Positions 9,394 to 20,411 of a DNA stretch of 25,626 nucleotides are shown here, one piece after another. Position numbers and translations under genes: made by a program. Position 1 is the stretch's first letter, and each line of letters starts with the position of its first letter. The stretch is from a virus. Its lineage: Duplodnaviria; Heunggongvirae; Uroviricota; Caudoviricetes. The notes beneath the pieces are model-generated. The model did not search any database, had not been told where the DNA came from, and saw only the letters and a list, made by a program, of their open reading frames with translations. The DNA is taken from the IMG/VR virus record IMGVR_UViG_3300027770_000048; one strand, given 5' to 3'.

Positions 9394-10839
9394 ATGACAG
9401 ATGAGTTACAAAAATGGAGAGATAAAAATTTGAATAGTATAAGTTGTACTTTTTGTGCAGCAAAATGGTATAATGCCAGTTTACATTTAGGACATGGTTA
9501 TACCAATTCGTGTCATTTACCATTGCCCCATCCAATTGATTTAGAAGAAATAAAAACAAATCCATCAGCATTACATAATACTAAGCATAAAAAAGAAATG
9601 CGTAGAATGATGTTAACAGGCATCAAACCGGCCGAATGTTCATATTGTTGGAAAATAGAAGATATAGGTAGAAATAATGTATCCGATAGAGTATATAAGA
9701 GTAGTATTTATAGTGAAGAAGACATTGCAGCATTACAACATATTCCATGGGATGCCGATATACCATTAAAAACCGTTGAAATTAGCTTTGATAGGACTTG
9801 TAATTTTGCATGTTCATATTGTAATGCGGGATATAGTACAACTTGGGGTAAAGAAATTCAACAACACGGCCCTTATCAAAAATTTAAAACAGGAAGTGCA
9901 GGTGCATATCAATCCGATGGTTCTTGGTCTGAACAATTTGGTAAACATAATGAGAATAATCCATATGTAAAGGCATTTTTAGAATGGTGGCCAGAATTAT
10001 CACAAACGTTACAAGAGGTAAGAGTTACCGGTGGTGAACCATCACAAAGTCATAATTTTTGGGATTTTATAGAAATAATGAAAAAATATCCATCCAAAAA
10101 TTTAAGAATGGCCGTAAATTCTAATTTAGGAGTTAATGATAAATCTTTACAAAGATTAATAGATATAACATATGAATTGGATATTAAACAATTTGATTTA
10201 TATACTTCAAATGAATCTTTCGGTAAACATGCAGAATATATTAGAGATGGATTACATTATGATACTTGGAGAGCCAATGTAGTTAAATTTATTGAACAAG
10301 CTAACCCTGAAAAATTTAGAGCATTAACAATAATGATGACAATAAATAGTTTATCTTTATTTAGTATAGTTGAATTTTTAGAAGATATGAAAATTTTAAA
10401 GATAAAATATGGTCACCATAGACCAAACGTTGATTTAAATATCTTAAGATGGCCATCGTTTATGTCTCCATTAGTATTACCTGATGAAATAAAAATGATA
10501 CTACATACTAAATTAAAAAATTGGTATGAAGATAATAAAGATAGTAATTTATTTAATTCAGGAGAAAAAGCTCAATTAGAAAGATTGATTGATTATATAG
10601 AAGTTGTAAAAAGAGGACACAATCGCACCGAATTGAATATGGATTTACAATTCCACGATTTTAAGAGTTTTTATACTCAATATGATATTCGTAGAAATAA
10701 AAACTTTGTGGAAACATTTCCTGAATTAACTGATTGGTATAATTCTATTGAAATAGACCACACAATTAAACCAATTAGAATGCATGATGGAAAATTGGGA
10801 AACTGGGAAACGGGTGAATACATTACAGACACAAAATAA
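9394..10839 (+). CDS. Second radical SAM protein with an N-terminal twitch domain
   Basis: CNFACSYC and VTGGEP. N-terminal CAAKW...SCHLP...CSYCW. C-terminal YDIRRNKNFVETFPEL. Clearly paralogous to 6444-7832. Confidence 0.92.
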   Translation: MTDELQKWRDKNLNSISCTFCAAKWYNASLHLGHGYTNSCHLPLPHPIDLEEIKTNPSALHNTKHKKEMRRMMLTGIKPAECSYCWKIEDIGRNNVSDRVYKSSIYSEEDIAALQHIPWDADIPLKTVEISFDRTCNFACSYCNAGYSTTWGKEIQQHGPYQKFKTGSAGAYQSDGSWSEQFGKHNENNPYVKAFLEWWPELSQTLQEVRVTGGEPSQSHNFWDFIEIMKKYPSKNLRMAVNSNLGVNDKSLQRLIDITYELDIKQFDLYTSNESFGKHAEYIRDGLHYDTWRANVVKFIEQANPEKFRALTIMMTINSLSLFSIVEFLEDMKILKIKYGHHRPNVDLNILRWPSFMSPLVLPDEIKMILHTKLKNWYEDNKDSNLFNSGEKAQLERLIDYIEVVKRGHNRTELNMDLQFHDFKSFYTQYDIRRNKNFVETFPELTDWYNSIEIDHTIKPIRMHDGKLGNWETGEYITDTK

Positions 10840-10843
10840 TAAT

Positions 10844-11776
10844 ATGAAAAAAATATTGATAACAGGCTGCAGTGGCCTAGTAGGAATACATTTAGTAAAA
10901 AAATGTTTAAAGCTGGGGTATAATGTGATTGGAGTTGATTTACGATATTCAAATAATTTACCAGTATCAGATAATTTTACCTTTTACGAATTAGATTTAA
11001 CAATTGGTGAAAATCTTAAAAATTTGTTTTTTTTTGAAACCCCTGATGCAGTATTTAATGCATTTGGTGTCAAAGGTTCTCCAATGAGGGCAAAAAATGA
11101 ACCTGTTGATTTTTTATATCCGTCTTTTAAAATTAATACTGAAATTATAAACCAATGTGCCCAAATGAATATTTGGTTAGTATTTGTAAGTTCAGTTGGT
11201 GTCTATGCACCAGCAGAATCTTTTGTTGAAGATAGTGTGTGGAAAACATTACCTGGTGAAGCTGATTGGTTTCCTGCTTGGAGTAAAAGAATGGGTGAAA
11301 TTTTATTAGAAGCGTGTAAAATACAATACAAATATGAAAAATATGCAATAATTAGACCAGCTAATATTTTCGGAGAATATGATGATTTTAGTGGAAAGGG
11401 AACAGTAATTGCATCTACAATTAAAAAAGTATATGACGCCACCGATTCCATTGAAGCATGGGGAGATGGTACACCAATTAGAGATTTTGTTTATGCGGGG
11501 GATGTTGCTAATGCCATTATTCAATTATATGAAAATAAGATACACGATGTTGTTAACTTCGGTACAGGTGAAGAAATTTCCATAAAAGATATGATTGAAA
11601 TGGTTATTAAAATTAGTGGTAAAGAGATATATATAAATTGGGATACTACAAAACCCAATGGTGACTTAAAAAGATTAATGGATGTTACAAAACAAAAAAA
11701 ATATAATTTATTACCTGAGATTTCGTTGTTGGAGTCTATAAAAAAAGTTTATGAATATTACTCAAACAAAAAATAA
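10844..11776 (+). CDS. NDP-sugar epimerase/reductase-like extended SDR (GDP-fucose synthase-like) lacking the catalytic Tyr; start revised from 10784 to 10844
   Basis: MKKILITGCSGLVG (GxxGxxG), RPANIFG, WGDGTPIRDFVYAGD, WDTTKPNG. The YxxxK position reads PAWSK (11273-11287). Confidence 0.88.
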   Translation: MKKILITGCSGLVGIHLVKKCLKLGYNVIGVDLRYSNNLPVSDNFTFYELDLTIGENLKNLFFFETPDAVFNAFGVKGSPMRAKNEPVDFLYPSFKINTEIINQCAQMNIWLVFVSSVGVYAPAESFVEDSVWKTLPGEADWFPAWSKRMGEILLEACKIQYKYEKYAIIRPANIFGEYDDFSGKGTVIASTIKKVYDATDSIEAWGDGTPIRDFVYAGDVANAIIQLYENKIHDVVNFGTGEEISIKDMIEMVIKISGKEIYINWDTTKPNGDLKRLMDVTKQKKYNLLPEISLLESIKKVYEYYSNKK

Positions 11777-12740
11777 AGATTCAAAAATCCTTATAACAGG
11801 TGGGTCTGGTTTGGTTGGACAAAATTTAACAAATCGATTACACAAAGAAGGTTACACAAACATTAGAGTTAATTTACACAAAAGAGGCGTGAGAAATACA
11901 ATCGAAAGTGTAGAATATACACACTTCGATTTACAAACATACGATGGATGTTTGAATGCAACCAAAGATGTGGATGTAGTATATCATTGTGCAGCAAGTA
12001 CCTCCAACGCTGTGGATACGGTTGTTGACCCGTTAGCACATGTTACACCAAATGTAGCAATGAATAATTTTTTAATTGATGCCAGTTGGAGAAATAAAGT
12101 TCAACATTATATTTTCTTATCATCTAATACTGTATATCCACCTAAAGGAGATACACCGGTAGTTGAAACCGATTTTCTATTTGATGAACCTTATCCAGTA
12201 TATTTTCCAGTTGGTTGGATGAAACGATATGCAGAAGTTCAATGTGAATTATATGCAAAGTATTTACCTGTTAAAATGAAATGTACAGTTATTAGACCTG
12301 CAAATTTATTTGGCCCACATGATAAATATGATTTTGATAAATGTCATGTAACACCCGCAACAATTAGAAAAGTAGCAGATAAAATGAATCCAATTCCTGT
12401 ATGGGGAGATGGAACCGAATTAAGAGATTTACTTTATATTGAAGATTTTTGTGAAGCATTGCAAATTGTAATGGAAAAAGAAACTGAAAATTATCAAATA
12501 TATAATATCGGATGTAATGAAGTTTATTCAATTTTAGATGTATTAGATAAAATGAAGAAAATTGCAAACTACGATGCTCCAATAGAATTCATAAAGGGTA
12601 AACCATCGATGATTCCTACACGTAAAATCGATTCAAATAAGATTTATGATAAGTTGGGTTGGAAAGCAACTACATCCTTAGAAGATGGTTTAAAATTAGC
12701 TTATGAATGGTATTTAGAACACAAAGAAGAATTTAATTAG
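11751..12740 (+). CDS. Second GDP-fucose synthase-like extended SDR lacking the catalytic Tyr
   Basis: ILITGGSGLVG, RPANLFGPHDKYD, HVTPA, WGDGTELRDLLYIED. The YxxxK position reads VGWMK (12210-12224). Confidence 0.88.
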   Translation: MNITQTKNKDSKILITGGSGLVGQNLTNRLHKEGYTNIRVNLHKRGVRNTIESVEYTHFDLQTYDGCLNATKDVDVVYHCAASTSNAVDTVVDPLAHVTPNVAMNNFLIDASWRNKVQHYIFLSSNTVYPPKGDTPVVETDFLFDEPYPVYFPVGWMKRYAEVQCELYAKYLPVKMKCTVIRPANLFGPHDKYDFDKCHVTPATIRKVADKMNPIPVWGDGTELRDLLYIEDFCEALQIVMEKETENYQIYNIGCNEVYSILDVLDKMKKIANYDAPIEFIKGKPSMIPTRKIDSNKIYDKLGWKATTSLEDGLKLAYEWYLEHKEEFN

Positions 12741-12742
12741 TT

Positions 12743-13609
12743 ATGAAAATAAAGGATGATAAAGTAATAAAGGGTATAATATTTGCAGGTTGTTCATTTA
12801 CTTGGGGACAGGGACTATATTATTATTCTAATATGTCTACACTAAAAGAACCACCTCCTGATACATATAATTGGGAATTGGTTACAGATGCACATAATAA
12901 ATTTAGAAAAACATTATACTTTCCAAGGTTAGTTGCTAATCACTTTGATACCTTTGAGGTTTCAATGATACAAAATGGTGGAGCGGAAGTAACATCATTT
13001 GAATATATTAAATGTGCACTTGGATTATTGGGCCCGTATCATCATTTGATAACCGAAACATACACATATGATGAAATAGAATATATAGTATTACAAACAT
13101 CACAACCACAACGAAATACATATCATTACGATTATACTAATTCGGATGGTAGTGTAGATAAATGTGAATTTAGAACATTTTCACCAGAAACACAGGATAA
13201 ATTTTATAAATATTTAGATGAACAAAAGAAATGTACAATCGATGAGTGGTATGCGGAACATTGCAAAGATTGGTTTCAAAAAATAAAACAAGAATTACAA
13301 TTTTATGAAAGTAAAGGAATAAAAACTTTTATACTTAATTGGGAAATCGATTATATGCCATTTTATAAAGATGATATGTGGATGAACGATAGATTGGTTA
13401 CATTTGAATACGATGGTAAACACTATGATACTATACGAACTATGATGGATGCAAATAAACAGTTACATATAAATTCAGATTATGAACATTTTGAAATCAC
13501 ACCAAAAGACCACCATCCTTCAAAAGAGTGTCATAGAATTATGGCAGATGCAATTATTAAAAAAATAAAAGAATCAAAAAATACACGTTATGAATCAAAG
13601 CTTATATAA
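12743..13609 (+). CDS. SGNH/GDSL-like hydrolase or acyltransferase (GCS variant)
   Basis: IFAGCSFTWGQG (block I) and DHHPSKECHRIMAD (block V, DxH-like). Confidence 0.62.
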   Translation: MKIKDDKVIKGIIFAGCSFTWGQGLYYYSNMSTLKEPPPDTYNWELVTDAHNKFRKTLYFPRLVANHFDTFEVSMIQNGGAEVTSFEYIKCALGLLGPYHHLITETYTYDEIEYIVLQTSQPQRNTYHYDYTNSDGSVDKCEFRTFSPETQDKFYKYLDEQKKCTIDEWYAEHCKDWFQKIKQELQFYESKGIKTFILNWEIDYMPFYKDDMWMNDRLVTFEYDGKHYDTIRTMMDANKQLHINSDYEHFEITPKDHHPSKECHRIMADAIIKKIKESKNTRYESKLI

Positions 13610-14126
13610 AGATGCACTTACCTCTGCAATGACGGAGTTGGGAAAAATGGATAATACTATCTTTATAGGACAACAATTACTTTGGCATGGAAATCCAATG
13701 AGTACAACCGTTTCAAATGTTCCAAAAGAAAAAATGATTGAAGTTCCTGTTATGGAAGAATCTCAAATGGGAATGAGTTTAGGGATGGCGATGTCCGGAA
13801 AATTTGTAATTACATTTTATCCTCGTTGGGATTTTTTAATTTGTGCAACTAATCAATTGGTAAATCATATAGATAAAATAGTTGGAATGAGTAAAGGTGA
13901 ATGGAATCCAAATATGATTATTAGAATTGGCAAAGGTTCGGATAAACCATTAGACCCAGGGCACCAACACAAAGGAAATTACATTGATGAATTTAAGTCA
14001 ATGTGTAAAAATATTGAATTTCACGATGTAAAATCAGGATATGATGTTGAATTGGCCTATAAATGTGCAATTCAAAATGGTGGAATTAATTGTATAATAG
14101 AATACCCAGAACTATATCATGTCTAA
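13590..14126 (+). CDS. ThDP-dependent enzyme beta subunit (PDH E1-beta / transketolase pyrimidine-binding domain only)
   Basis: IEVPVMEESQMGMSLGMAMSG, FLICATNQLVNH, IIRIG...PGHQH. At 178 aa it has no transketolase C-terminal domain. Confidence 0.85.
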   Translation: MNQSLYKDALTSAMTELGKMDNTIFIGQQLLWHGNPMSTTVSNVPKEKMIEVPVMEESQMGMSLGMAMSGKFVITFYPRWDFLICATNQLVNHIDKIVGMSKGEWNPNMIIRIGKGSDKPLDPGHQHKGNYIDEFKSMCKNIEFHDVKSGYDVELAYKCAIQNGGINCIIEYPELYHV

Positions 14127-14881: not shown

Positions 14882-17440
14882 TTATATTAATTTTTGTTTA
14901 TTTACTCTCACTCCTGTTTCAAATTCATATTCATATAATCCAGTCAATTTTTTTAAAAAATCTCTATCACTTGTATCATATGTTAAATCTTTTGCTAATT
15001 TATGATTTTTTTGAAATCTTTCTTTATTGTTTTTATAAAAATCAATAAAAAATTCTTTGTTATCATTTATACGTTTAATTTCTTTAACGAATGCATATAA
15101 TCGTTCTTTGTGGTCTAATATAGTATCGTAACTATGGTCTATAACATCATCAAACCAATCAAAATTATAACGTTTTTTTATTTCATAAATGTGGTTTGGA
15201 GATGCCAGTATTAGTGGAAATTGAAATGTAACAAATGGTTTAAATGATTTTTCAGTAACGTGTATTTCATTAGTATCAAATTCCGTTTCAGTTGTAATAT
15301 TTACATAGGAATTTTTATAACTTAAATACTCATACGTTCTTCCCCAATCTACATAATCTATATTATCCTCTCTAAACCAATTTTTATCTTCTTCATAGAA
15401 ACTTTTCTTTTGGTCTATATTGATAAAATACACCATATCATCTATCATTTTTTCCATATCCTCATCGGATAAACACGATTGATACAATCCTATTGGATGA
15501 TTTGCATATTTTTGTTTAGCATCCCATCCATTTGCTAATGACCAATCTACATTATCCAAAAGACCATATTGTTTTAACAAAACTAATAAAGAATATCTAT
15601 GTGGTCTAATACGTCTATTATGGCATAAGAAGAATTTACCTTCTTTTTCTGTGGTATATTTTAAGTCTGGCATTGCTTCCATCATAGCTAATCCGATATG
15701 GGTTCTAACTTTTGATGTAGAATATACATTCATTTGACTATTTAATTCTGCTTTATAATCTTCTAATTTAATATTATTATTTACTATCCAAATTTGACTT
15801 TGATTTAAATTATTAAATTTAGTCCAAAAATGAACAAACTTAAAAGTATTAAAACTTTCAAATTCTTGTTCATTTGCCAAAACAACATTAAAGTTTGGAT
15901 TTTCTCGCCAACAATCTATAATCTCTTGTGGAAATGGTAAGATTCTATCTCTAATTTTATTACCTATTTGATTTGGCGTAAGTGTTACGAAATAATAAAA
16001 TTTTCTATTTGGATATTTTGCAACGGTATTAATTGGATATCGTTTAATTCTTTCTTCGGGAAATCCTAAAGACCTAACAAATGATTCTAAATTCATAAGA
16101 AATGAATCTGTGTAAATTTCTTTACAATTCATATCATATGGCTCTTGTAATGTTTCGTTCCAATTATCATAAACTAAGTGTAAATCTACATCATCAATCT
16201 CTGGCTTTACTTCACTTAATTTTTTAAAAAATTTATAATCATAATCGTTACCCCATGCCTTTAATATATTGTGATTTTTTTGAAATCTTTCTTTATTGTT
16301 TTTATAAAAATTAATAAAAAATTCTTTGTTATCATTTATACGTTTAACTTCTTCAACAAATGCGATTAATCTATCCCTATTATTTTCTATATTATCATAA
16401 CTATGATTTATAATATCATCAAAGAAATCCAATTCAGGATATGCTTTTCTAAAATATTCTAAATGATGATATGAAGCTAAAATCATTGGATATTGAAAAT
16501 AGAAAAATGGTTTAAACGATTTTTCAGTAATATGAATATCTTCTCCTACAAAATTAGTTTCGGTTGTAATATTCAAATATGAATTTTCAAAACTATTGGG
16601 TTCGTTTGGCAATCTTTGAATTTCTCTATCATCCAATCCTTCGTATTGAGTTTCATAATTACTTTTTTTAATATCAATTGAAGTAAAATATTCAATTTCA
16701 TCTGATAAATTTAATATATCTTCGGAGTTCAAAATAGAAGTAAATTGTGATTTAGCTTCTTTATCAAAAGACCATCCGTTTATCAACGACCAATTTGTAT
16801 TGTCTAAAATATTATATTTTTTTAATAAACATAATAATCCATACCGATGAATTCTTGGACTTCTATTATGACACAAAAAAAACTGATTTGGAGTTTTTAA
16901 TATTCTATATTTTACTGCAGGATATGTTCCAGAAACTGATGTAGACATTGAACGACTTGCATGCACATTTATACTTGCATTTAATTCTTGTTTATGTTCT
17001 GGTAATTTTTCACCATTATGAATAAACCAAACCTTTTTAGGATTTATTTTATGTAATTTTACTATCTTATCAAGTCTTTCTAAAGATTGTTTTGTTTCAA
17101 ACTCACACTCATTCATTATAATTAAATGTAAATTATTATTAGTTTTAATCATCCGAATTACCTCTTTATTCACAGGTAACATATTATTGGCAAAAAAACG
17201 ATTATTCCAACCATTTCTATTCCATATATGATAATAAAACATTACATCCGGATTATTTGGAACATCTGATAGTTTCCAATTTTTTATAACGGTTCTATGA
17301 TATACCGCCATTGGTTGTGTAGATAACACCCACGTATTCTCATTATCATCTTGATGAATATAATCACTTAATCTATTAGGAAGGGGTAAATCATTTACTT
17401 CATCCCAATCATCATAAACAAAATTTAAAACGTTATCCAT
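14882..17440 (-). CDS. Protein of two tandem homologous ~415-435 aa units, each with a GT10-like TEK motif (putative double glycosyltransferase)
   Basis: Unit 1: VYDDW ... FLCHNRSPRIHR ... ITTET ... HITEKSFKPF. Unit 2 (from about aa 416): VYDNW ... FLCHNRRIRPHR ... ITTET ... HVTEKSFKPF. The TEK motif recalls the GT10 donor-binding motif; the functional call is tentative. Confidence 0.55.
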   Translation of the reverse strand: MDNVLNFVYDDWDEVNDLPLPNRLSDYIHQDDNENTWVLSTQPMAVYHRTVIKNWKLSDVPNNPDVMFYYHIWNRNGWNNRFFANNMLPVNKEVIRMIKTNNNLHLIIMNECEFETKQSLERLDKIVKLHKINPKKVWFIHNGEKLPEHKQELNASINVHASRSMSTSVSGTYPAVKYRILKTPNQFFLCHNRSPRIHRYGLLCLLKKYNILDNTNWSLINGWSFDKEAKSQFTSILNSEDILNLSDEIEYFTSIDIKKSNYETQYEGLDDREIQRLPNEPNSFENSYLNITTETNFVGEDIHITEKSFKPFFYFQYPMILASYHHLEYFRKAYPELDFFDDIINHSYDNIENNRDRLIAFVEEVKRINDNKEFFINFYKNNKERFQKNHNILKAWGNDYDYKFFKKLSEVKPEIDDVDLHLVYDNWNETLQEPYDMNCKEIYTDSFLMNLESFVRSLGFPEERIKRYPINTVAKYPNRKFYYFVTLTPNQIGNKIRDRILPFPQEIIDCWRENPNFNVVLANEQEFESFNTFKFVHFWTKFNNLNQSQIWIVNNNIKLEDYKAELNSQMNVYSTSKVRTHIGLAMMEAMPDLKYTTEKEGKFFLCHNRRIRPHRYSLLVLLKQYGLLDNVDWSLANGWDAKQKYANHPIGLYQSCLSDEDMEKMIDDMVYFINIDQKKSFYEEDKNWFREDNIDYVDWGRTYEYLSYKNSYVNITTETEFDTNEIHVTEKSFKPFVTFQFPLILASPNHIYEIKKRYNFDWFDDVIDHSYDTILDHKERLYAFVKEIKRINDNKEFFIDFYKNNKERFQKNHKLAKDLTYDTSDRDFLKKLTGLYEYEFETGVRVNKQKLI
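15003..15094. repeat. 92-bp direct repeat, copy 1 (in unit 2 of the 852-aa gene)
   Basis: Matches 16272-16363 at 88/92 nt by manual comparison; offset 1269 nt (423 codons). Confidence 0.9.
16272..16363. repeat. 92-bp direct repeat, copy 2 (in unit 1 of the 852-aa gene)
   Basis: Matches 15003-15094 with 4 substitutions. Encodes AFVEEVKRINDNKEFFINFYKNNKERFQKNH versus AFVKEIKRINDNKEFFIDFYKNNKERFQKNH. Confidence 0.9.
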
Positions 17441-18057
17441 TTACCTGTTCCGTAATGCGGCCATTTATTTTTATAATTATACCAAATCACATTAGAAGGT
17501 ATTTCTCTTTTAATTCCACCCCAAGTTTCAATTGTTGGTGTATTAGTTGAAACTCCATTATCTTCGACAACAAATATTATAGGCAAATCCAAATTAGTTG
17601 CGTATTTATGCATTTCATAAAACTGACCTGTTTCAAATGCCATATCACCAATAAAACACCAAACTTTTTCATCACCACCACTTTGTTTAATTCCCATAGC
17701 TGCACCAACCGCAATTGGAATAATTGATGATACAATTGCAGATGCATAAAATTTATCTTTTTCACTAACAATTGTAATACTTCTACCTGCTAATATTTCT
17801 TCTTCTAACCATACCGGACTAATTCCTTTAATTAATGCATGATAATGAGAACGCCAAGTTGAAAATACCCAATCGGTGGATTTCATTCGTTTACCAATTT
17901 CTATTAATTGTTCCTCATTTCCTCCACTCAAATGAACTGGTCCTTTGATTTTTCCTTCTTCCCAATGTTTTACTATAAAATCTTCAAACTTAATTAAAGA
18001 TGTTATGGTTTGTTCAATATCTTTTATAATTGGATATTGTTCTAAATTTTTTATCAT
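17425..18057 (-). CDS. ThDP-dependent enzyme alpha subunit (PDH E1-alpha-like, truncated)
   Basis: GPVHLSGGNE, STWRSH, and the ThDP/Mg motif CFIGDMAFETG...FVVEDNG. It is 210 aa long and ends at WPHYGTG. Confidence 0.87.
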   Translation of the reverse strand: MIKNLEQYPIIKDIEQTITSLIKFEDFIVKHWEEGKIKGPVHLSGGNEEQLIEIGKRMKSTDWVFSTWRSHYHALIKGISPVWLEEEILAGRSITIVSEKDKFYASAIVSSIIPIAVGAAMGIKQSGGDEKVWCFIGDMAFETGQFYEMHKYATNLDLPIIFVVEDNGVSTNTPTIETWGGIKREIPSNVIWYNYKNKWPHYGTGKWITF

Positions 18058-18590
18058 CTATCTCTTTTTTGTAGTGTTGGATTATTAGAAGGCCATTCCA
18101 TTTGATATTCTGGGTCATTCCATTTAACTACACCTTGCTCATTTGCATCTACATAACCATTTTTATAAAATAAATTATAATGAAATATACAATCAGTTAA
18201 TGCGTAGTGGCCGTTTGCAAATCCAGGTGGAACTAATATTTGATTTCTATCTTTATCAGTTATCATAAAAGATTCCCACTCTCCAAAGGTAGTACTATTT
18301 TTTCTCATATCTAATACAATTAGGTAAATATCTCCAACTACGGCTTGAACTAACTTCCAAGTCTTATTATCGTAATGCAATCCTCTTAATACACCTTTAT
18401 ATGATTTTGAGAATCTACCATGTACTTCATTTCCTTCACCTATTTTTGTAATTACAGGGTGTTCACCTGAATGAAAGGTTGTAAATATTTCACCTCTATA
18501 TTCTCTATAAATTGATGGAGTATATGTTGGTACTTCTAATCCAAATTTTTTCGAAGGAGTAATTTGAAACTCATCCCATTTATTACTCAT
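18054..18590 (-). CDS. rmlC: dTDP-4-dehydrorhamnose 3,5-epimerase family (cupin)
   Basis: YRGEIF, SYKGVLRGLHY, KLVQAVVGDIY..VLDMRKNSTTFGEW, LVPPGFANG, WNDP. The nucleotide specificity is not certain. Confidence 0.9.
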   Translation of the reverse strand: MSNKWDEFQITPSKKFGLEVPTYTPSIYREYRGEIFTTFHSGEHPVITKIGEGNEVHGRFSKSYKGVLRGLHYDNKTWKLVQAVVGDIYLIVLDMRKNSTTFGEWESFMITDKDRNQILVPPGFANGHYALTDCIFHYNLFYKNGYVDANEQGVVKWNDPEYQMEWPSNNPTLQKRDR

Positions 18591-18591
18591 A

Positions 18592-19575
18592 CTATGTTTG
18601 ATTTGCGTATCCTAAAGGAAAACCATTTCTAAATTCAAAACCCATTTTTGGTACTATCATTTGATATGCCATTATAAGTTCTTTAATACCTCTATCTAAA
18701 TCCCATTGTGGCCCCCATCCTGTTGCTTCTAACTTATCGTTTGATACAATATAGTTCCTCTTATCTGGGTCCTCATAATAGTCATCGTAGACCACTGCAA
18801 AGTCCTTTACATGAGATTGTATTTTTTCTAATAATTCTTGTTTTGAAAGATTTGCATTACTCAATCCTACATTGAAAACTTCACCTTTATATTTGTCATA
18901 ATGTTGAATCATAAAACAAAAAGTAAATGCTACATCCTGTATATGAATGAAATTTCTTTTGAACGTTTTTTCAAATACAACAACATATTTGTCAGTAATT
19001 GATTTATAAACAAAATCGTTTACTAATAAGTCAGTTCTCATTCTTGACGAAACTCCAAAAACAGTTGCCAATCTAAATATGATTGCATCCGTTGAAGTTC
19101 TTAAAAAGTTTTCAGCATCACATTTAGTTTGTCCGTAAACTGATATTGGAGTAAGTGGAGATTCTTCTGTACATTCCATTTGACCGGTACTTAAACCATA
19201 TCCACTATTTGTATTTGGATATAAAATCTTTTTACCTTTTCCGTTTGTAAATTTAACAATATTAACTATTTGTTGAAAGTTAATTTCTTTTGCTAATTTT
19301 GGGTCTTGTGCACATGCAGGAAATCCTACAATTGCAGCCAATGGAATAATCACATCCGCTTCATCACAAAGTTTTTGTAATAATGATTCGTTACGAACAT
19401 CTCCATGTATAAATTTGAATTTTGACTTTGATATGTATTGTAATAACGAAGTTTGATTGAATAATAATTTATCCAAAACAACTACTTCATAACTTTGTTC
19501 TAATAGTTTTCCAACTAATACCGAACCCAAATAACCTGCACCACCTGTGATTAAAACTTTTTTATTTATATTCAT
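18592..19575 (-). CDS. NAD-dependent NDP-sugar epimerase/dehydratase (extended SDR, canonical YxxxK)
   Basis: VLITGGAGYLGS, GDVR, LAAIVG, YGQTK, FRLATVFG...MRTDLLVN, RNFIHIQDVA. Confidence 0.92.
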   Translation of the reverse strand: MNINKKVLITGGAGYLGSVLVGKLLEQSYEVVVLDKLLFNQTSLLQYISKSKFKFIHGDVRNESLLQKLCDEADVIIPLAAIVGFPACAQDPKLAKEINFQQIVNIVKFTNGKGKKILYPNTNSGYGLSTGQMECTEESPLTPISVYGQTKCDAENFLRTSTDAIIFRLATVFGVSSRMRTDLLVNDFVYKSITDKYVVVFEKTFKRNFIHIQDVAFTFCFMIQHYDKYKGEVFNVGLSNANLSKQELLEKIQSHVKDFAVVYDDYYEDPDKRNYIVSNDKLEATGWGPQWDLDRGIKELIMAYQMIVPKMGFEFRNGFPLGYANQT

Positions 19576-19595: not shown

Positions 19596-20411
19596 TTAAG
19601 GCCCAACAAATGATTGAATTGCAAACCTTTTGAATTTATTTTTAACAAGTTCAATTGAATGACCCACATTAAATTTGGTGAAATCCATTATGACGTAATT
19701 CCCATAAACTGGAATACATTTTACAGCTGACTGATTAAATTCCAAAATTTGTTGGTTATTTGTTTTAATATCTTGTCCTATTAATAATTCACCACCATCA
19801 TCATTATGATATGTAAGTGGGTCTGCCAAATAGAATACTATTACACAAGCTCTTCCTGGATTTATACCATCAAAATGCATTTCGGAAAAATCCCCAGCTT
19901 CATATAAACTATAACCAGTAGCTACTCTAAAGGTATCCTTTTTATCAAATAGTTCGGGATAAATAAGTGAAGTATGTTTTCTAATAACATCTTCAAAATA
20001 AGTATCCATATCCCGTATTTTTTGTGCTTCTGCACCTTCAAAATTTTCTAATTGTAATCTTGACCATTGTTGTGTAGTTCTAATATCTCCACCACCAGCA
20101 ATTACTTGATTAACAAAGTCTTTTCTATTATCCACACGTACATATGGTATTTCCTGTAAAAATTCCTCATCAGTTGGTACTGGTCCAGAATATTCGTTAG
20201 AATTTAAATAATTGTGAGGAGAATTCTGAGCTATAAAATTGTGTCGATAACAATACCATTTTTCTTTTTCATCTGCAGTTTGTCTAAAGTGATTAGTCCA
20301 ATATAAAAACATATCTTCTTTTATACCCGTTAAATCATTAAAAAATTCCTCGAATTTACCAATGTGGTATCCATTGTTTATCAAATTTTTATAGATTTGA
20401 TTATACATCAT
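19596..20411 (-). CDS. 2OG-Fe(II) oxygenase (prolyl 4-hydroxylase-like superfamily)
   Basis: YSLYEAGDFSEMHFDG (HxD), FYLAD...DGGEL, GHSIELV (distal His) and KRFAI (2OG-binding Arg). Confidence 0.85.
   Translation of the reverse strand: MMYNQIYKNLINNGYHIGKFEEFFNDLTGIKEDMFLYWTNHFRQTADEKEKWYCYRHNFIAQNSPHNYLNSNEYSGPVPTDEEFLQEIPYVRVDNRKDFVNQVIAGGGDIRTTQQWSRLQLENFEGAEAQKIRDMDTYFEDVIRKHTSLIYPELFDKKDTFRVATGYSLYEAGDFSEMHFDGINPGRACVIVFYLADPLTYHNDDGGELLIGQDIKTNNQQILEFNQSAVKCIPVYGNYVIMDFTKFNVGHSIELVKNKFKRFAIQSFVGP

What the first reader, a model, noticed from the sequence alone, without database searches (positions are those of the whole stretch)
10844..12740. Two adjacent GDP-fucose-synthase-like SDRs that both lack the catalytic tyrosine
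Seen: the YxxxK motif is PAWSK (11273-11287) in one gene and VGWMK (12210-12224) in the other, while GxxGxxG, the catalytic Ser region, the Lys and WGDG..RD are intact. The third SDR in the window keeps YGQTK. Known: extended SDRs use this Tyr as the general acid/base. E. coli Fcl also uses Cys109 and His179 for epimerisation; the Cys is absent in both genes (SSVGVY, SSNTVY) and the His is kept only in the second (CHVTP). Inference: independent-looking loss of Tyr in two full-length genes with a shared xWxKR motif suggests a distinct subfamily. It could use another mechanism, or it could present NDP-4-keto-sugar to the truncated ThDP enzyme, perhaps as a heterodimer.
Basis: partly seen in the sequence, partly recalled or inferred. 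Interest (0 to 1): 0.82.

Follow-up and report, generated by a model that had tools for sequence, protein, structure and literature searches.

The report
Phage sugar enzymes missing usual tyrosine
Two neighbouring sugar-modifying enzymes of an uncultured large phage do lack the textbook catalytic tyrosine, but this is the fixed signature of two old, uncharacterised enzyme families that sit beside thiamine-dependent enzymes in phages and in many bacteria, which points to an undescribed route to an unusual sugar.

Summary
At the column of E. coli Fcl Tyr136, SDR1 (10844-11776) has Pro144 and SDR2 (11751-12740) has Val154. Lys, Ser, GxxGxxG and WGDG..RD are kept.

The "independent loss" reading is only partly right.
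- **SDR2** belongs to a large clade with the motif Y-[FY]-x-V-G-W-M-K-R-Y. A Tyr three residues upstream (Tyr151) is present in 135 of 150 cluster representatives. A family profile aligns it with the catalytic Tyr174 of GDP-mannose 3,5-epimerase through a 3-residue gap, so the motif reads Y-x6-K rather than "no Tyr".
- **SDR1** belongs to a second clade, D-x-[FY]-P-x-W-x-K-R. Asp141 is invariant there, and the ancestral Tyr position is mostly Phe. This clade really has no conserved Tyr.

Both families are found well beyond phages:
- In 79 of 80 viral contigs the pair lies together, usually in the order E1alpha, SDR1, SDR2, E1beta.
- In 48 of 69 bacterial loci an SDR1-type gene lies near the SDR2-type gene, often as SDR1-type, RmlC, SDR2-type.
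- 50 of 60 long bacterial loci carry a two-subunit ThDP enzyme within 10 kb.

Most likely these are working enzymes of an uncharacterised NDP-sugar pathway that includes a ThDP-dependent C-C bond-forming step. The chemistry itself is inferred. The heterodimer test gave no verdict. The scan has flagged the same pair before on other phage genomes.

The parts
10844..11776 (+). SDR1: an Fcl/GME-like extended SDR of 310 aa in the 'S1' family. It has no conserved catalytic Tyr.
   Evidence: Translation. Pfam Epimerase hit at 1.6e-39. AF2 model with pLDDT 93.9. It shares 33% identity over its full length with the Nitrospira S1 gene.
11264..11290 (+). SDR1 active-site helix motif D141-W-F-P144-A-W146-S-K148-R149. 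P144 sits at the canonical Tyr column and F143 at the likely ancestral Tyr position.
   Evidence: D, P, W, K and R are 95-100% conserved across phage and bacterial S1 members. Position -5 from the Lys is F or Y.
11751..12740 (+). SDR2: an Fcl/GME-like extended SDR of 329 aa in the 'S2' family, with a Y-x6-K motif. It overlaps the end of SDR1 by 26 nt.
   Evidence: Translation. Pfam Epimerase hit at 4.8e-44. AF2 model with pLDDT 96.3. The best fold match is GDP-mannose 3,5-epimerase, TM 0.89.
12201..12227 (+). SDR2 motif Y151-F-P-V154-G-W156-M-K158-R159. V154 sits at the canonical Tyr column and Y151 is the conserved upstream Tyr.
   Evidence: Among 150 representatives, Y151 is present in 135, Tyr at the canonical column in only 5, and K158 in 124. 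The family profile aligns Y151 with GME Tyr174. Residues 149-170 form one helix in the model.
12345..12347 (+). SDR2 His199, at the column of Fcl His179 and GME Lys217.
   Evidence: His is present in 132 of 150 representatives.
12743..13609 (+). Conserved 288-aa gene after SDR2. It matches no Pfam family.
   Evidence: It follows SDR2 in 40 of 80 viral loci. No Pfam hit.
13590..14126 (+). Short E1-beta-like ThDP subunit (178 aa; pyrimidine-binding domain only).
   Evidence: Pfam Transket_pyr hit at 2.6e-08. Present in 73 of 80 viral loci, downstream of SDR2.
17425..18057 (-). Short E1-alpha-like ThDP subunit (210 aa).
   Evidence: Pfam E1_dh hit at 1.7e-18. Present in 73 of 80 viral loci, usually just upstream of SDR1.
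18054..18590 (-). RmlC-like cupin (NDP-4-keto-sugar 3,5-epimerase family).
   Evidence: Pfam dTDP_sugar_isom hit at 4.9e-32. Present in 63 of 80 viral loci. It lies directly upstream of the S2 gene in 29 of 69 bacterial loci.
18592..19575 (-). SDR3: an extended SDR with the canonical YGQTK motif, RmlD-like in that motif.
   Evidence: Translation. Pfam Epimerase and RmlD_sub_bind hits. Present in 69 of 80 viral loci.
19596..20411 (-). 2OG-Fe(II) oxygenase. In relatives, a paralogous domain is fused to SDR1 or to SDR2.
   Evidence: Pfam hits. SDR1::2OG fusion of 563 aa in L001. 2OG::SDR2 fusion of 547 aa, P0014.

Best explanation
SDR1 and SDR2 are working members of two old, uncharacterised sister families of Fcl/GME-like extended SDRs. 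In both families the catalytic helix has been rebuilt. They act in a conserved NDP-sugar tailoring pathway that also contains an RmlC-like epimerase and a two-subunit ThDP enzyme.

**SDR2 (shown, then inferred).** It keeps Ser124, Lys158 and His199, and its Rossmann fold has basic residues after strand 2. Its Tyr (Y151) lies seven residues before the Lys instead of four, about one helical turn further out. I infer that SDR2 is an NADPH-dependent ketoreductase whose acid is placed for a carbonyl that sits differently from the usual ring C4 keto group. The most likely target is the carbonyl of the two-carbon branch that the ThDP enzyme would add to an NDP-4-keto sugar.

**SDR1 (shown, then inferred).** It has an acidic residue after strand 2 (NAD type). 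It has no conserved Tyr and carries an invariant Asp141 exactly where SDR2 has Tyr151. I infer that it binds NAD and the same sugar nucleotide. It would then carry out a step that needs no Tyr acid (epimerisation or isomerisation of a keto sugar, or hydride transfer with Asp/Lys/water as the proton relay).

**Status.** Family membership, conservation and gene linkage are shown. The substrates, the cofactor preference and both mechanisms are inferred.
For: **Families and motifs**
- The canonical Tyr column is P in SDR1 and V in SDR2.
- In the S2 family, Y151 is present in 135 of 150 representatives, Tyr at the canonical column in 5, K158 in 124 and H199 in 132.
- The S2 family profile aligns Y151 with GME Tyr174 through a 3-residue gap.
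- Y151, V154 and K158 lie on one predicted helix, residues 149-170.
- S1 family invariants are D141, P144, W146, K148, R149, S116, S117 and a GxKGS motif. Position -5 is F or Y.
- The related S4 family still has Tyr at -5.
- The S2 clade and the S1+S4 clade each have 99% support.

**Selection**
- The motifs are identical in all 121 close homologues of each gene.

**Gene linkage in viruses**
- SDR2 accompanies SDR1 in 79 of 80 loci. E1a occurs in 73, E1b in 73, SDR3 in 69 and RmlC in 63, and the core order is conserved.

**Gene linkage in bacteria**
- An S1 gene lies near the S2 gene in 48 of 69 loci, and RmlC in 44 of 69.
- A two-subunit ThDP enzyme occurs in 50 of 60 long loci and an HddA-like GHMP kinase in 45 of 60.
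- A 40%-identical homologue lies beside equally short E1a and E1b genes.

**Fusions and cofactor site**
- A 2OG oxygenase domain is fused to SDR1 in some relatives and to SDR2 in others.
- The end of strand 2 is acidic in S1 and basic in S2.

**Precedents**
- PDH-E1-like heterodimers are proposed to acetylate NDP-4-keto sugars (PMC10338323).
- An SDR ketoreductase can work without the Tyr (SimC7, PMC5039031).
Against: - No member of either family has been assayed or solved. The nearest structures are 25% identical.
- I could not read model coordinates, so whether Y151 or D141 reaches the nicotinamide and substrate is unknown.
- A pairwise alignment to Fcl places V154, not Y151, at the Tyr column, so the 'moved Tyr' rests on one of two possible alignments plus conservation.
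- 26 of 150 S2 representatives lack the Lys but keep Y151 and H199. That fits acid/base (epimerase) chemistry at least as well as ketoreduction.
- No 4,6-dehydratase or sugar-1-phosphate nucleotidyltransferase was identified in the window, so the substrate is unknown.
- The NAD versus NADP assignment is a rule of thumb.
Confidence: 0.6

Rival explanations
1. SDR2-type enzymes are not reductases. They are cofactor-bearing epimerases or isomerases that use Tyr151 and His199 as the acid/base pair on a keto sugar, in the way Fcl uses Cys109/His179 and GME uses Cys145/Lys217.
For: - His199 sits at the Fcl His179 / GME Lys217 column and is kept in 132 of 150 representatives.
- 26 representatives lack the SDR Lys, yet 21 of them keep Y151, 22 keep H199 and 25 keep GxxGxxG.
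- GME is the best profile and fold match.
Against: - An RmlC-like epimerase is already present in most loci.
- The phage SDR2 itself keeps Ser124, Lys158 and an NADP-type site, as a reductase would.
- The Lys-less forms are extra paralogues that sit beside a Lys-bearing S2 gene in the same loci.
Confidence: 0.2
2. SDR1 is a non-catalytic SDR-fold subunit. It would bind the nucleotide or sugar and partner with SDR2, the 2OG oxygenase or the short ThDP subunits, for example as an SDR1:SDR2 heterodimer through the Trp-bearing catalytic helices.
For: - SDR1 has no conserved Tyr, and Phe is the commonest residue at the ancestral Tyr position.
- SDR1 and SDR2 are inseparable in viral loci (79 of 80) and are linked in bacteria.
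- Fusions join the same oxygenase domain to either SDR.
- Both families conserve a Trp two residues before the Lys. On a helix this faces away from the Tyr/Lys face (the geometry is inference).
Against: - SDR1 keeps GxxGxxG, Ser116/Ser117, Lys148, Asn174 and an invariant Asp141 across phage and bacterial members that are only 33% identical. That pattern is typical of an active pocket.
Confidence: 0.15
3. Both genes are ordinary GDP-L-fucose synthases, as automatic annotation calls their homologues. On this view the motif differences have no functional meaning.
For: - JGI names many homologues 'GDP-L-fucose synthase'.
- Fcl is among the best sequence and fold matches.
Against: - The Fcl equivalog model scores 132 and 149 bits against a cut-off of 500.
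- Tyr136 and Cys109 are absent in both genes, and His179 is absent in SDR1.
- No GDP-mannose 4,6-dehydratase was found in the window.
- The conserved partners are RmlC and ThDP enzymes.
Confidence: 0.03

Closest known systems
E. coli GDP-L-fucose synthase Fcl/WcaG (PDB 1bws, 1e6u)
   Same: Same extended-SDR fold and length. Ser, Lys, GxxGxxG and WGxG..R(D/E) are kept. It is the best pairwise PDB match of SDR2 (E 1e-31). SDR2 also keeps the His179 equivalent.
   Different: Tyr136 and Cys109 are absent at the aligned columns, and His179 is absent in SDR1. The Fcl equivalog score is far below its cut-off. The genetic partners are RmlC and ThDP enzymes rather than Gmd.
GDP-mannose 3,5-epimerase (Arabidopsis GME, PDB 2c59/2c5a)
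   Same: It is the best match of the SDR2-family profile (E 1e-55) and of the SDR2 model (TM 0.89). The family Tyr151 aligns with catalytic Tyr174, and His199 with Lys217.
   Different: Three extra residues lie between the Tyr and the Lys (Y-x6-K). The Cys145 equivalent is Asn, Ser or Thr. Identity is about 25%.
Campylobacter jejuni GDP-heptose tailoring set: C4-dehydrogenase Cj1427, cupin C3/C5-epimerase Cj1430, C4-reductase Cj1428 (PMC10680097)
   Same: The logic is SDR, cupin, SDR. Bacterial loci show an S1-type SDR, RmlC, then an S2-type SDR, and 45 of 60 carry an HddA-like heptose kinase. A C. jejuni heptose C4-reductase (8ewu) is a good fold match.
   Different: The C. jejuni pathway contains no ThDP enzyme. 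I did not test whether its SDRs have the canonical triad. The phage window has no kinase or nucleotidyltransferase of that pathway.
ThDP-dependent two-carbon branching of NDP-4-keto sugars: YerE/YerF (yersiniose), and PDH-E1-like pairs such as EvdU5/EvdS3 (PMC10338323) and those of the paulomycin clusters (PMC4802897, seen but not read in detail)
   Same: A heterodimeric E1 alpha/beta-like ThDP enzyme is embedded among NDP-sugar SDRs and an epimerase. A reductase would be needed for the acetyl branch.
   Different: The phage subunits are much shorter (210 and 178 aa). None of the known pathways is reported to use Tyr-shifted SDRs. Many bacterial loci use a split transketolase instead, which would imply a different C-C bond-forming chemistry.
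SDRs that work without the canonical Tyr: SimC7 (Ser-Ile-His, substrate-assisted; PMC5039031). From memory, not checked here: the CapE/FnlA UDP-GlcNAc dehydratases with a Ser-Met-Lys triad.
   Same: They show that an SDR fold can catalyse hydride transfer or sugar chemistry with the YxxxK Tyr replaced.
   Different: They are unrelated subfamilies with different replacement residues and substrates. SimC7 also lacks the Lys, which SDR1 and SDR2 keep.

Membership tests
Extended SDR (Pfam PF01370, NAD-dependent epimerase/dehydratase) | Rossmann fold with an N-terminal GxxGxxG motif and a C-terminal substrate-binding domain, about 310-350 aa in total | tested here: met
   Pfam E-values are 1.6e-39 for SDR1 and 4.8e-44 for SDR2. 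The motifs TGCSGLVG and TGGSGLVG are present. The AF2 models are confident and match extended SDRs at TM 0.8-0.9.
Extended SDR (Pfam PF01370) | Catalytic Ser/Thr plus YxxxK, with the Tyr four residues before the Lys | tested here: not met
   Ser and Lys are present. The Tyr column is P144 in SDR1 and V154 in SDR2. SDR2 has its Tyr seven residues before the Lys, and SDR1 has none that is conserved.
GDP-L-fucose synthase (NCBIfam NF047922 equivalog) | Whole-protein score at or above the curated cut-off of 500 bits | tested here: not met
   The scores are 132.1 bits for SDR1 and 148.9 bits for SDR2.
GDP-L-fucose synthase | The epimerisation pair Cys109 and His179, plus Tyr136 | tested here: not met
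   In SDR1 the three columns are V118, T187 and P144. In SDR2 they are N126, H199 and V154.
GDP-L-fucose synthase | A partner GDP-mannose 4,6-dehydratase encoded nearby | tested here: not met
   No window ORF is a Gmd. The gmd model reaches only 20.6 bits on SDR1, and the other ORFs hit other families or none.
GDP-mannose 3,5-epimerase | Catalytic Tyr174 and Lys178 in a YxxxK motif, plus the Cys145/Lys217 acid-base pair | tested here: not met
   The family profile aligns Y151 with Tyr174 only through a 3-residue gap. The Cys column is Asn126, and the Lys217 column is His199.
ThDP-dependent branched-chain NDP-sugar pathway (YerE/YerF or AviB/Evd type) | A ThDP enzyme encoded among NDP-sugar tailoring genes | tested here: met
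   E1_dh and Transket_pyr subunits are in the window. They occur in 73 of 80 viral loci. A two-subunit ThDP enzyme occurs in 50 of 60 long bacterial loci.
ThDP-dependent branched-chain NDP-sugar pathway | An enzyme that makes the NDP-4-keto acceptor (a 4,6-dehydratase or decarboxylase) | tested here: inconclusive
   None was recognised in the window. The host could supply it, or SDR3 or SDR1 could generate the keto sugar.
ThDP-dependent branched-chain NDP-sugar pathway | Formation of a C-acetyl or hydroxyethyl-branched sugar and its reduction by the SDR | not testable with these tools
   This needs enzyme assays with product analysis.

The most novel reading that the evidence does not exclude
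The two families define a new catalytic arrangement of the SDR fold, dedicated to ThDP-built (branched or chain-extended) sugar nucleotides.
- In one family the proton donor has moved one helical turn (Y-x6-K), so it can serve a carbonyl outside the sugar ring.
- In its obligate partner family the Tyr is replaced by an Asp-based relay, or that family acts as a Trp-zippered heterodimer partner.

The product would be an undescribed sugar, made by many bacterial phyla and copied by abundant aquatic T4-like phages, possibly to decorate their virions.
Probability: 0.3. Interest if true: 0.8.

Novelty: new variant of a known kind. Interest (0 to 1): 0.6.

Why it matters
The Ser-Tyr-Lys triad with YxxxK spacing is the defining catalytic signature of SDR enzymes, and automatic annotation relies on it.

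Two large families break that rule in fixed, family-specific ways: hundreds of near-identical phage copies, and members in Nitrospirales, Omnitrophota, Chloroflexota, Planctomycetota, Elusimicrobiota and others. Automatic annotation currently names many of their members 'GDP-L-fucose synthase'.

Their near-obligate linkage to two-subunit ThDP enzymes, RmlC-like cupins and often a heptose-type kinase marks out a widespread sugar-nucleotide pathway with no characterised member. Working it out would:
- reveal how an SDR works with a displaced or missing Tyr;
- identify a new bacterial and phage surface sugar;
- correct a systematic misannotation.

Tried and rejected
- **Heterodimer of SDR1 and SDR2.** One complex-prediction job returned 'no answer' (best score 0.31, mark 0.32). 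It is not used as evidence either way.
- **Position of Y151 and D141 in three dimensions.** The AF2 models are confident, but their coordinates are not exposed. I could not measure distances to the cofactor site and could use only the secondary-structure string.
- **Nucleotide search of cultured phages.** There was no match. Protein-level matches in cultured phages are at most 31% identical and are canonical Fcl/GME-like genes.
- **Whole genome.** None is held for this window.
- **First genome scan.** It was repeated with the narrower A3.
- **Literature.** Searches for a Tyr-shifted or Tyr-less nucleotide-sugar SDR, and for transketolase in O-antigen clusters, found nothing relevant to these families.
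- **Whether the two clades lost or moved the Tyr once or twice.** The quick tree leaves Fcl, S2 and S1+S4 unresolved. The careful tree did not finish in time.
- **Pseudogene or assembly-error reading.** Rejected, because both motifs are fixed in all close homologues.
Full report
**What is in the window**

The window is a long run of glycan-related genes from an uncultured large T4-like phage (earlier notes). No genome is held for it.

The two genes of the finding are SDR1 (10844-11776, 310 aa) and SDR2 (11751-12740, 329 aa). They lie on the plus strand and overlap by 26 nt. Both are extended SDRs: Pfam Epimerase hits at 1.6e-39 and 4.8e-44. They are 31% identical to each other.

Nearby genes:
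- a conserved 288-aa ORF after SDR2;
- a short E1-beta-like ThDP subunit (13590-14126);
- on the other strand, a short E1-alpha-like subunit (17425-18057);
- an RmlC-like cupin (18054-18590);
- a third SDR with canonical YGQTK (18592-19575);
- a 2OG-Fe(II) oxygenase (19596-20411).

Upstream lie two radical SAM genes, methyltransferases and GT7-like glycosyltransferases.

**Checking the observation**

HMMER alignments to solved Fcl structures place Fcl Tyr136 opposite Pro144 of SDR1 and Val154 of SDR2. Lys140 and Ser107 are conserved. Cys109 is replaced by Val in SDR1 and Asn in SDR2. His179 is kept only in SDR2, as His199.

The motifs are under selection. D-W-[FY]-P-[SA]-W-S-K-R occurs in all 121 close SDR1 homologues, and Y-F-x-V-[GA]-W-M-K-R-Y in all 121 close SDR2 homologues.

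Neither protein qualifies as Fcl. The NCBIfam equivalog scores 132 and 149 bits against a cut-off of 500.

**SDR2 belongs to a large family with a displaced Tyr**

A search of 1.84 billion cluster representatives gave 324 proteins at E ≤ 1e-30. I aligned the best 150.

| Column (SDR2 numbering) | Residue | Representatives out of 150 |
|---|---|---|
| 154 (canonical Tyr column) | Tyr | 5 |
| 154 | Val, Ile, Leu or Ala | 122 |
| 151 (three residues upstream) | Tyr | 135 |
| 158 | Lys | 124 |
| 199 | His | 132 |

A profile of the family matches GDP-mannose 3,5-epimerase best. HMMER aligns the family Tyr with the catalytic Tyr174 of that enzyme by opening a 3-residue gap. The motif can therefore be read as Y-x6-K rather than as a lost Tyr.

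The AF2 model (pLDDT 96.3) puts residues 149-170 in one helix. On a regular helix, Tyr151 would sit about one turn before the canonical position, on roughly the same face as Lys158. This last point is inference, because I could not read coordinates.

The best fold matches are GME (TM 0.89), Fcl and a C. jejuni heptose C4-reductase, at about 25% identity. No member of the family has a solved structure.

**SDR1 belongs to a second family that truly lacks the Tyr**

Bacterial loci recovered with the SDR2 motif contain a second SDR with the motif P-P-M-D-M-F-P-G-W-A-K-R-M-A-E. It is 33% identical to the phage SDR1 over its full length.

Across phage and bacterial members the conserved positions are Asp141, Pro144, Trp146, Lys148, Arg149, Ser116, Ser117 and a GxKGS motif, at 95-100%. 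The residue five positions before the Lys is Phe in most members and Tyr in some.

A related family (S4, N-D-R-Y-A-G-I-A-K-R) still has Tyr at that position. The simplest reading is therefore a one-residue insertion plus a Tyr-to-Phe change. Asp141 occupies exactly the column where SDR2 has Tyr151.

In a quick maximum-likelihood tree the S2 clade and the S1+S4 clade each have 99% support. They join Fcl in an unresolved group, so I cannot say whether the helix was rebuilt once or twice.

The end of Rossmann strand 2 is acidic in S1 (V-[SD]-L-[DR]) and basic in S2 ([YL]-H-x-[RK]). By the usual SDR rule this suggests NAD for SDR1 and NADP for SDR2. This is inference.

**Gene linkage**

Counts in 80 viral contigs found with the SDR1 motif:

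| Gene | Loci out of 80 |
|---|---|
| SDR2 | 79 |
| E1alpha | 73 |
| E1beta | 73 |
| SDR3 | 69 |
| RmlC | 63 |

The recurrent order is SDR3, RmlC, E1alpha, SDR1, (2OG oxygenase), SDR2, (288-aa ORF), E1beta. The window has the same genes split over two strands.

In some relatives the oxygenase domain is fused to the C-terminus of SDR1 (563 aa). In others it is fused to the N-terminus of SDR2 (547 aa).

The bacterial loci come from Nitrospirales, Omnitrophota, Chloroflexota, Planctomycetota, Elusimicrobiota, Azospirillum, Heliobacterium and others, and include complete chromosomes.
- Of 69 informative loci, 48 have an S1 gene and 44 have RmlC. In 23, the two genes lie directly upstream of the S2 gene as a contiguous S1, RmlC, S2 run.
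- Of 60 loci of at least 15 kb, 50 carry an E1 alpha/beta pair or a split transketolase. 45 carry an HddA-like GHMP kinase.
- A 40%-identical homologue lies beside equally short E1 subunits of 201 and 177 aa.

An earlier follow-up on another genome called the route 'virus-only'; the bacterial loci argue against that.

**How it most likely works**

These points are shown: both proteins are conserved, folded members of two distinct SDR families, and both are embedded in a pathway with an RmlC-like epimerase and a two-subunit ThDP enzyme.

The rest is inferred. By analogy with YerE and with the PDH-E1-like pairs proposed to acetylate NDP-4-keto sugars (PMC10338323), the ThDP enzyme would form a C-C bond on a keto sugar nucleotide.
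- SDR2 has Ser, Lys, an NADP-type site and a Tyr displaced by one turn. It is the best candidate for reducing a carbonyl that is not at the usual ring position, such as the branch carbonyl.
- SDR1 has an NAD-type site, no Tyr and an invariant Asp. It would perform a step that does not need the Tyr acid, or use another proton relay.

SimC7 shows that SDR ketoreduction without the Tyr is possible (PMC5039031). The C. jejuni heptose pathway shows the dehydrogenase, cupin, reductase logic (PMC10680097).

Rival readings are given separately: SDR2 as a Tyr/His epimerase, SDR1 as a non-catalytic partner, and both as ordinary Fcl. The heterodimer job gave no verdict.

**Verdict**

This is a new variant of a known enzyme kind. 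It marks a widespread, uncharacterised sugar-nucleotide pathway. Interest is moderate to high and rests on conservation and linkage; the chemistry remains to be shown.

Noticed in passing
L001:8313-10004; protein P0014: In related phage contigs a 2OG-Fe(II) oxygenase domain is fused to the C-terminus of SDR1 (563 aa). In other contigs it is fused to the N-terminus of SDR2 (547 aa, 89% identical to the window's SDR2). The window's free-standing oxygenase (19596-20411) is only 31% identical to the fused domain.
   Followed up: partly
L013:4422-5435, L047:7464-8456, L057:5042-6106, L061:1337-2326: Some bacterial loci carry an extra SDR2-type paralogue in which the SDR Lys is replaced by Ser or Asn (W-M-[SN]-R). 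The upstream Tyr and the His are kept. Among the 150 cluster representatives, 26 lack the Lys.
   Followed up: partly
L020:1-12223 (Nitrospira sp. chromosome): The bacterial version of the pathway runs in this order:
- the end of a Gmd-like gene;
- an HddA-like GHMP kinase;
- a NUDIX protein;
- split transketolase N and C subunits;
- an S4-type SDR;
- an aldo-keto reductase;
- an unknown gene;
- a TylF-like methyltransferase;
- an S1-type SDR, RmlC and an S2-type SDR;
- a second aldo-keto reductase.

A GT9 heptosyltransferase-like gene lies further downstream. I know of no characterised pathway with this composition.
   Followed up: partly
window 12743-13609: A 288-aa ORF with no Pfam match follows SDR2 and overlaps the start of E1beta. 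A homologue follows SDR2 in 40 of 80 viral loci.
   Followed up: no
window 10784-10843: The longest ORF for SDR1 starts at an ATG 60 nt upstream, inside the end of the radical SAM gene. Homologues start at MKK(I/V)LITG, so 10844 is the likely start.
   Followed up: partly
window 13590-14126 and 17425-18057; L004:10158-11298: The ThDP subunits are very short: 178 and 210 aa in the window, and 177 and 201 aa in a distant bacterial-type contig. Bacterial E1-like genes in other loci are spaced about 900 bp apart, which suggests full-length alpha subunits there.
   Followed up: no
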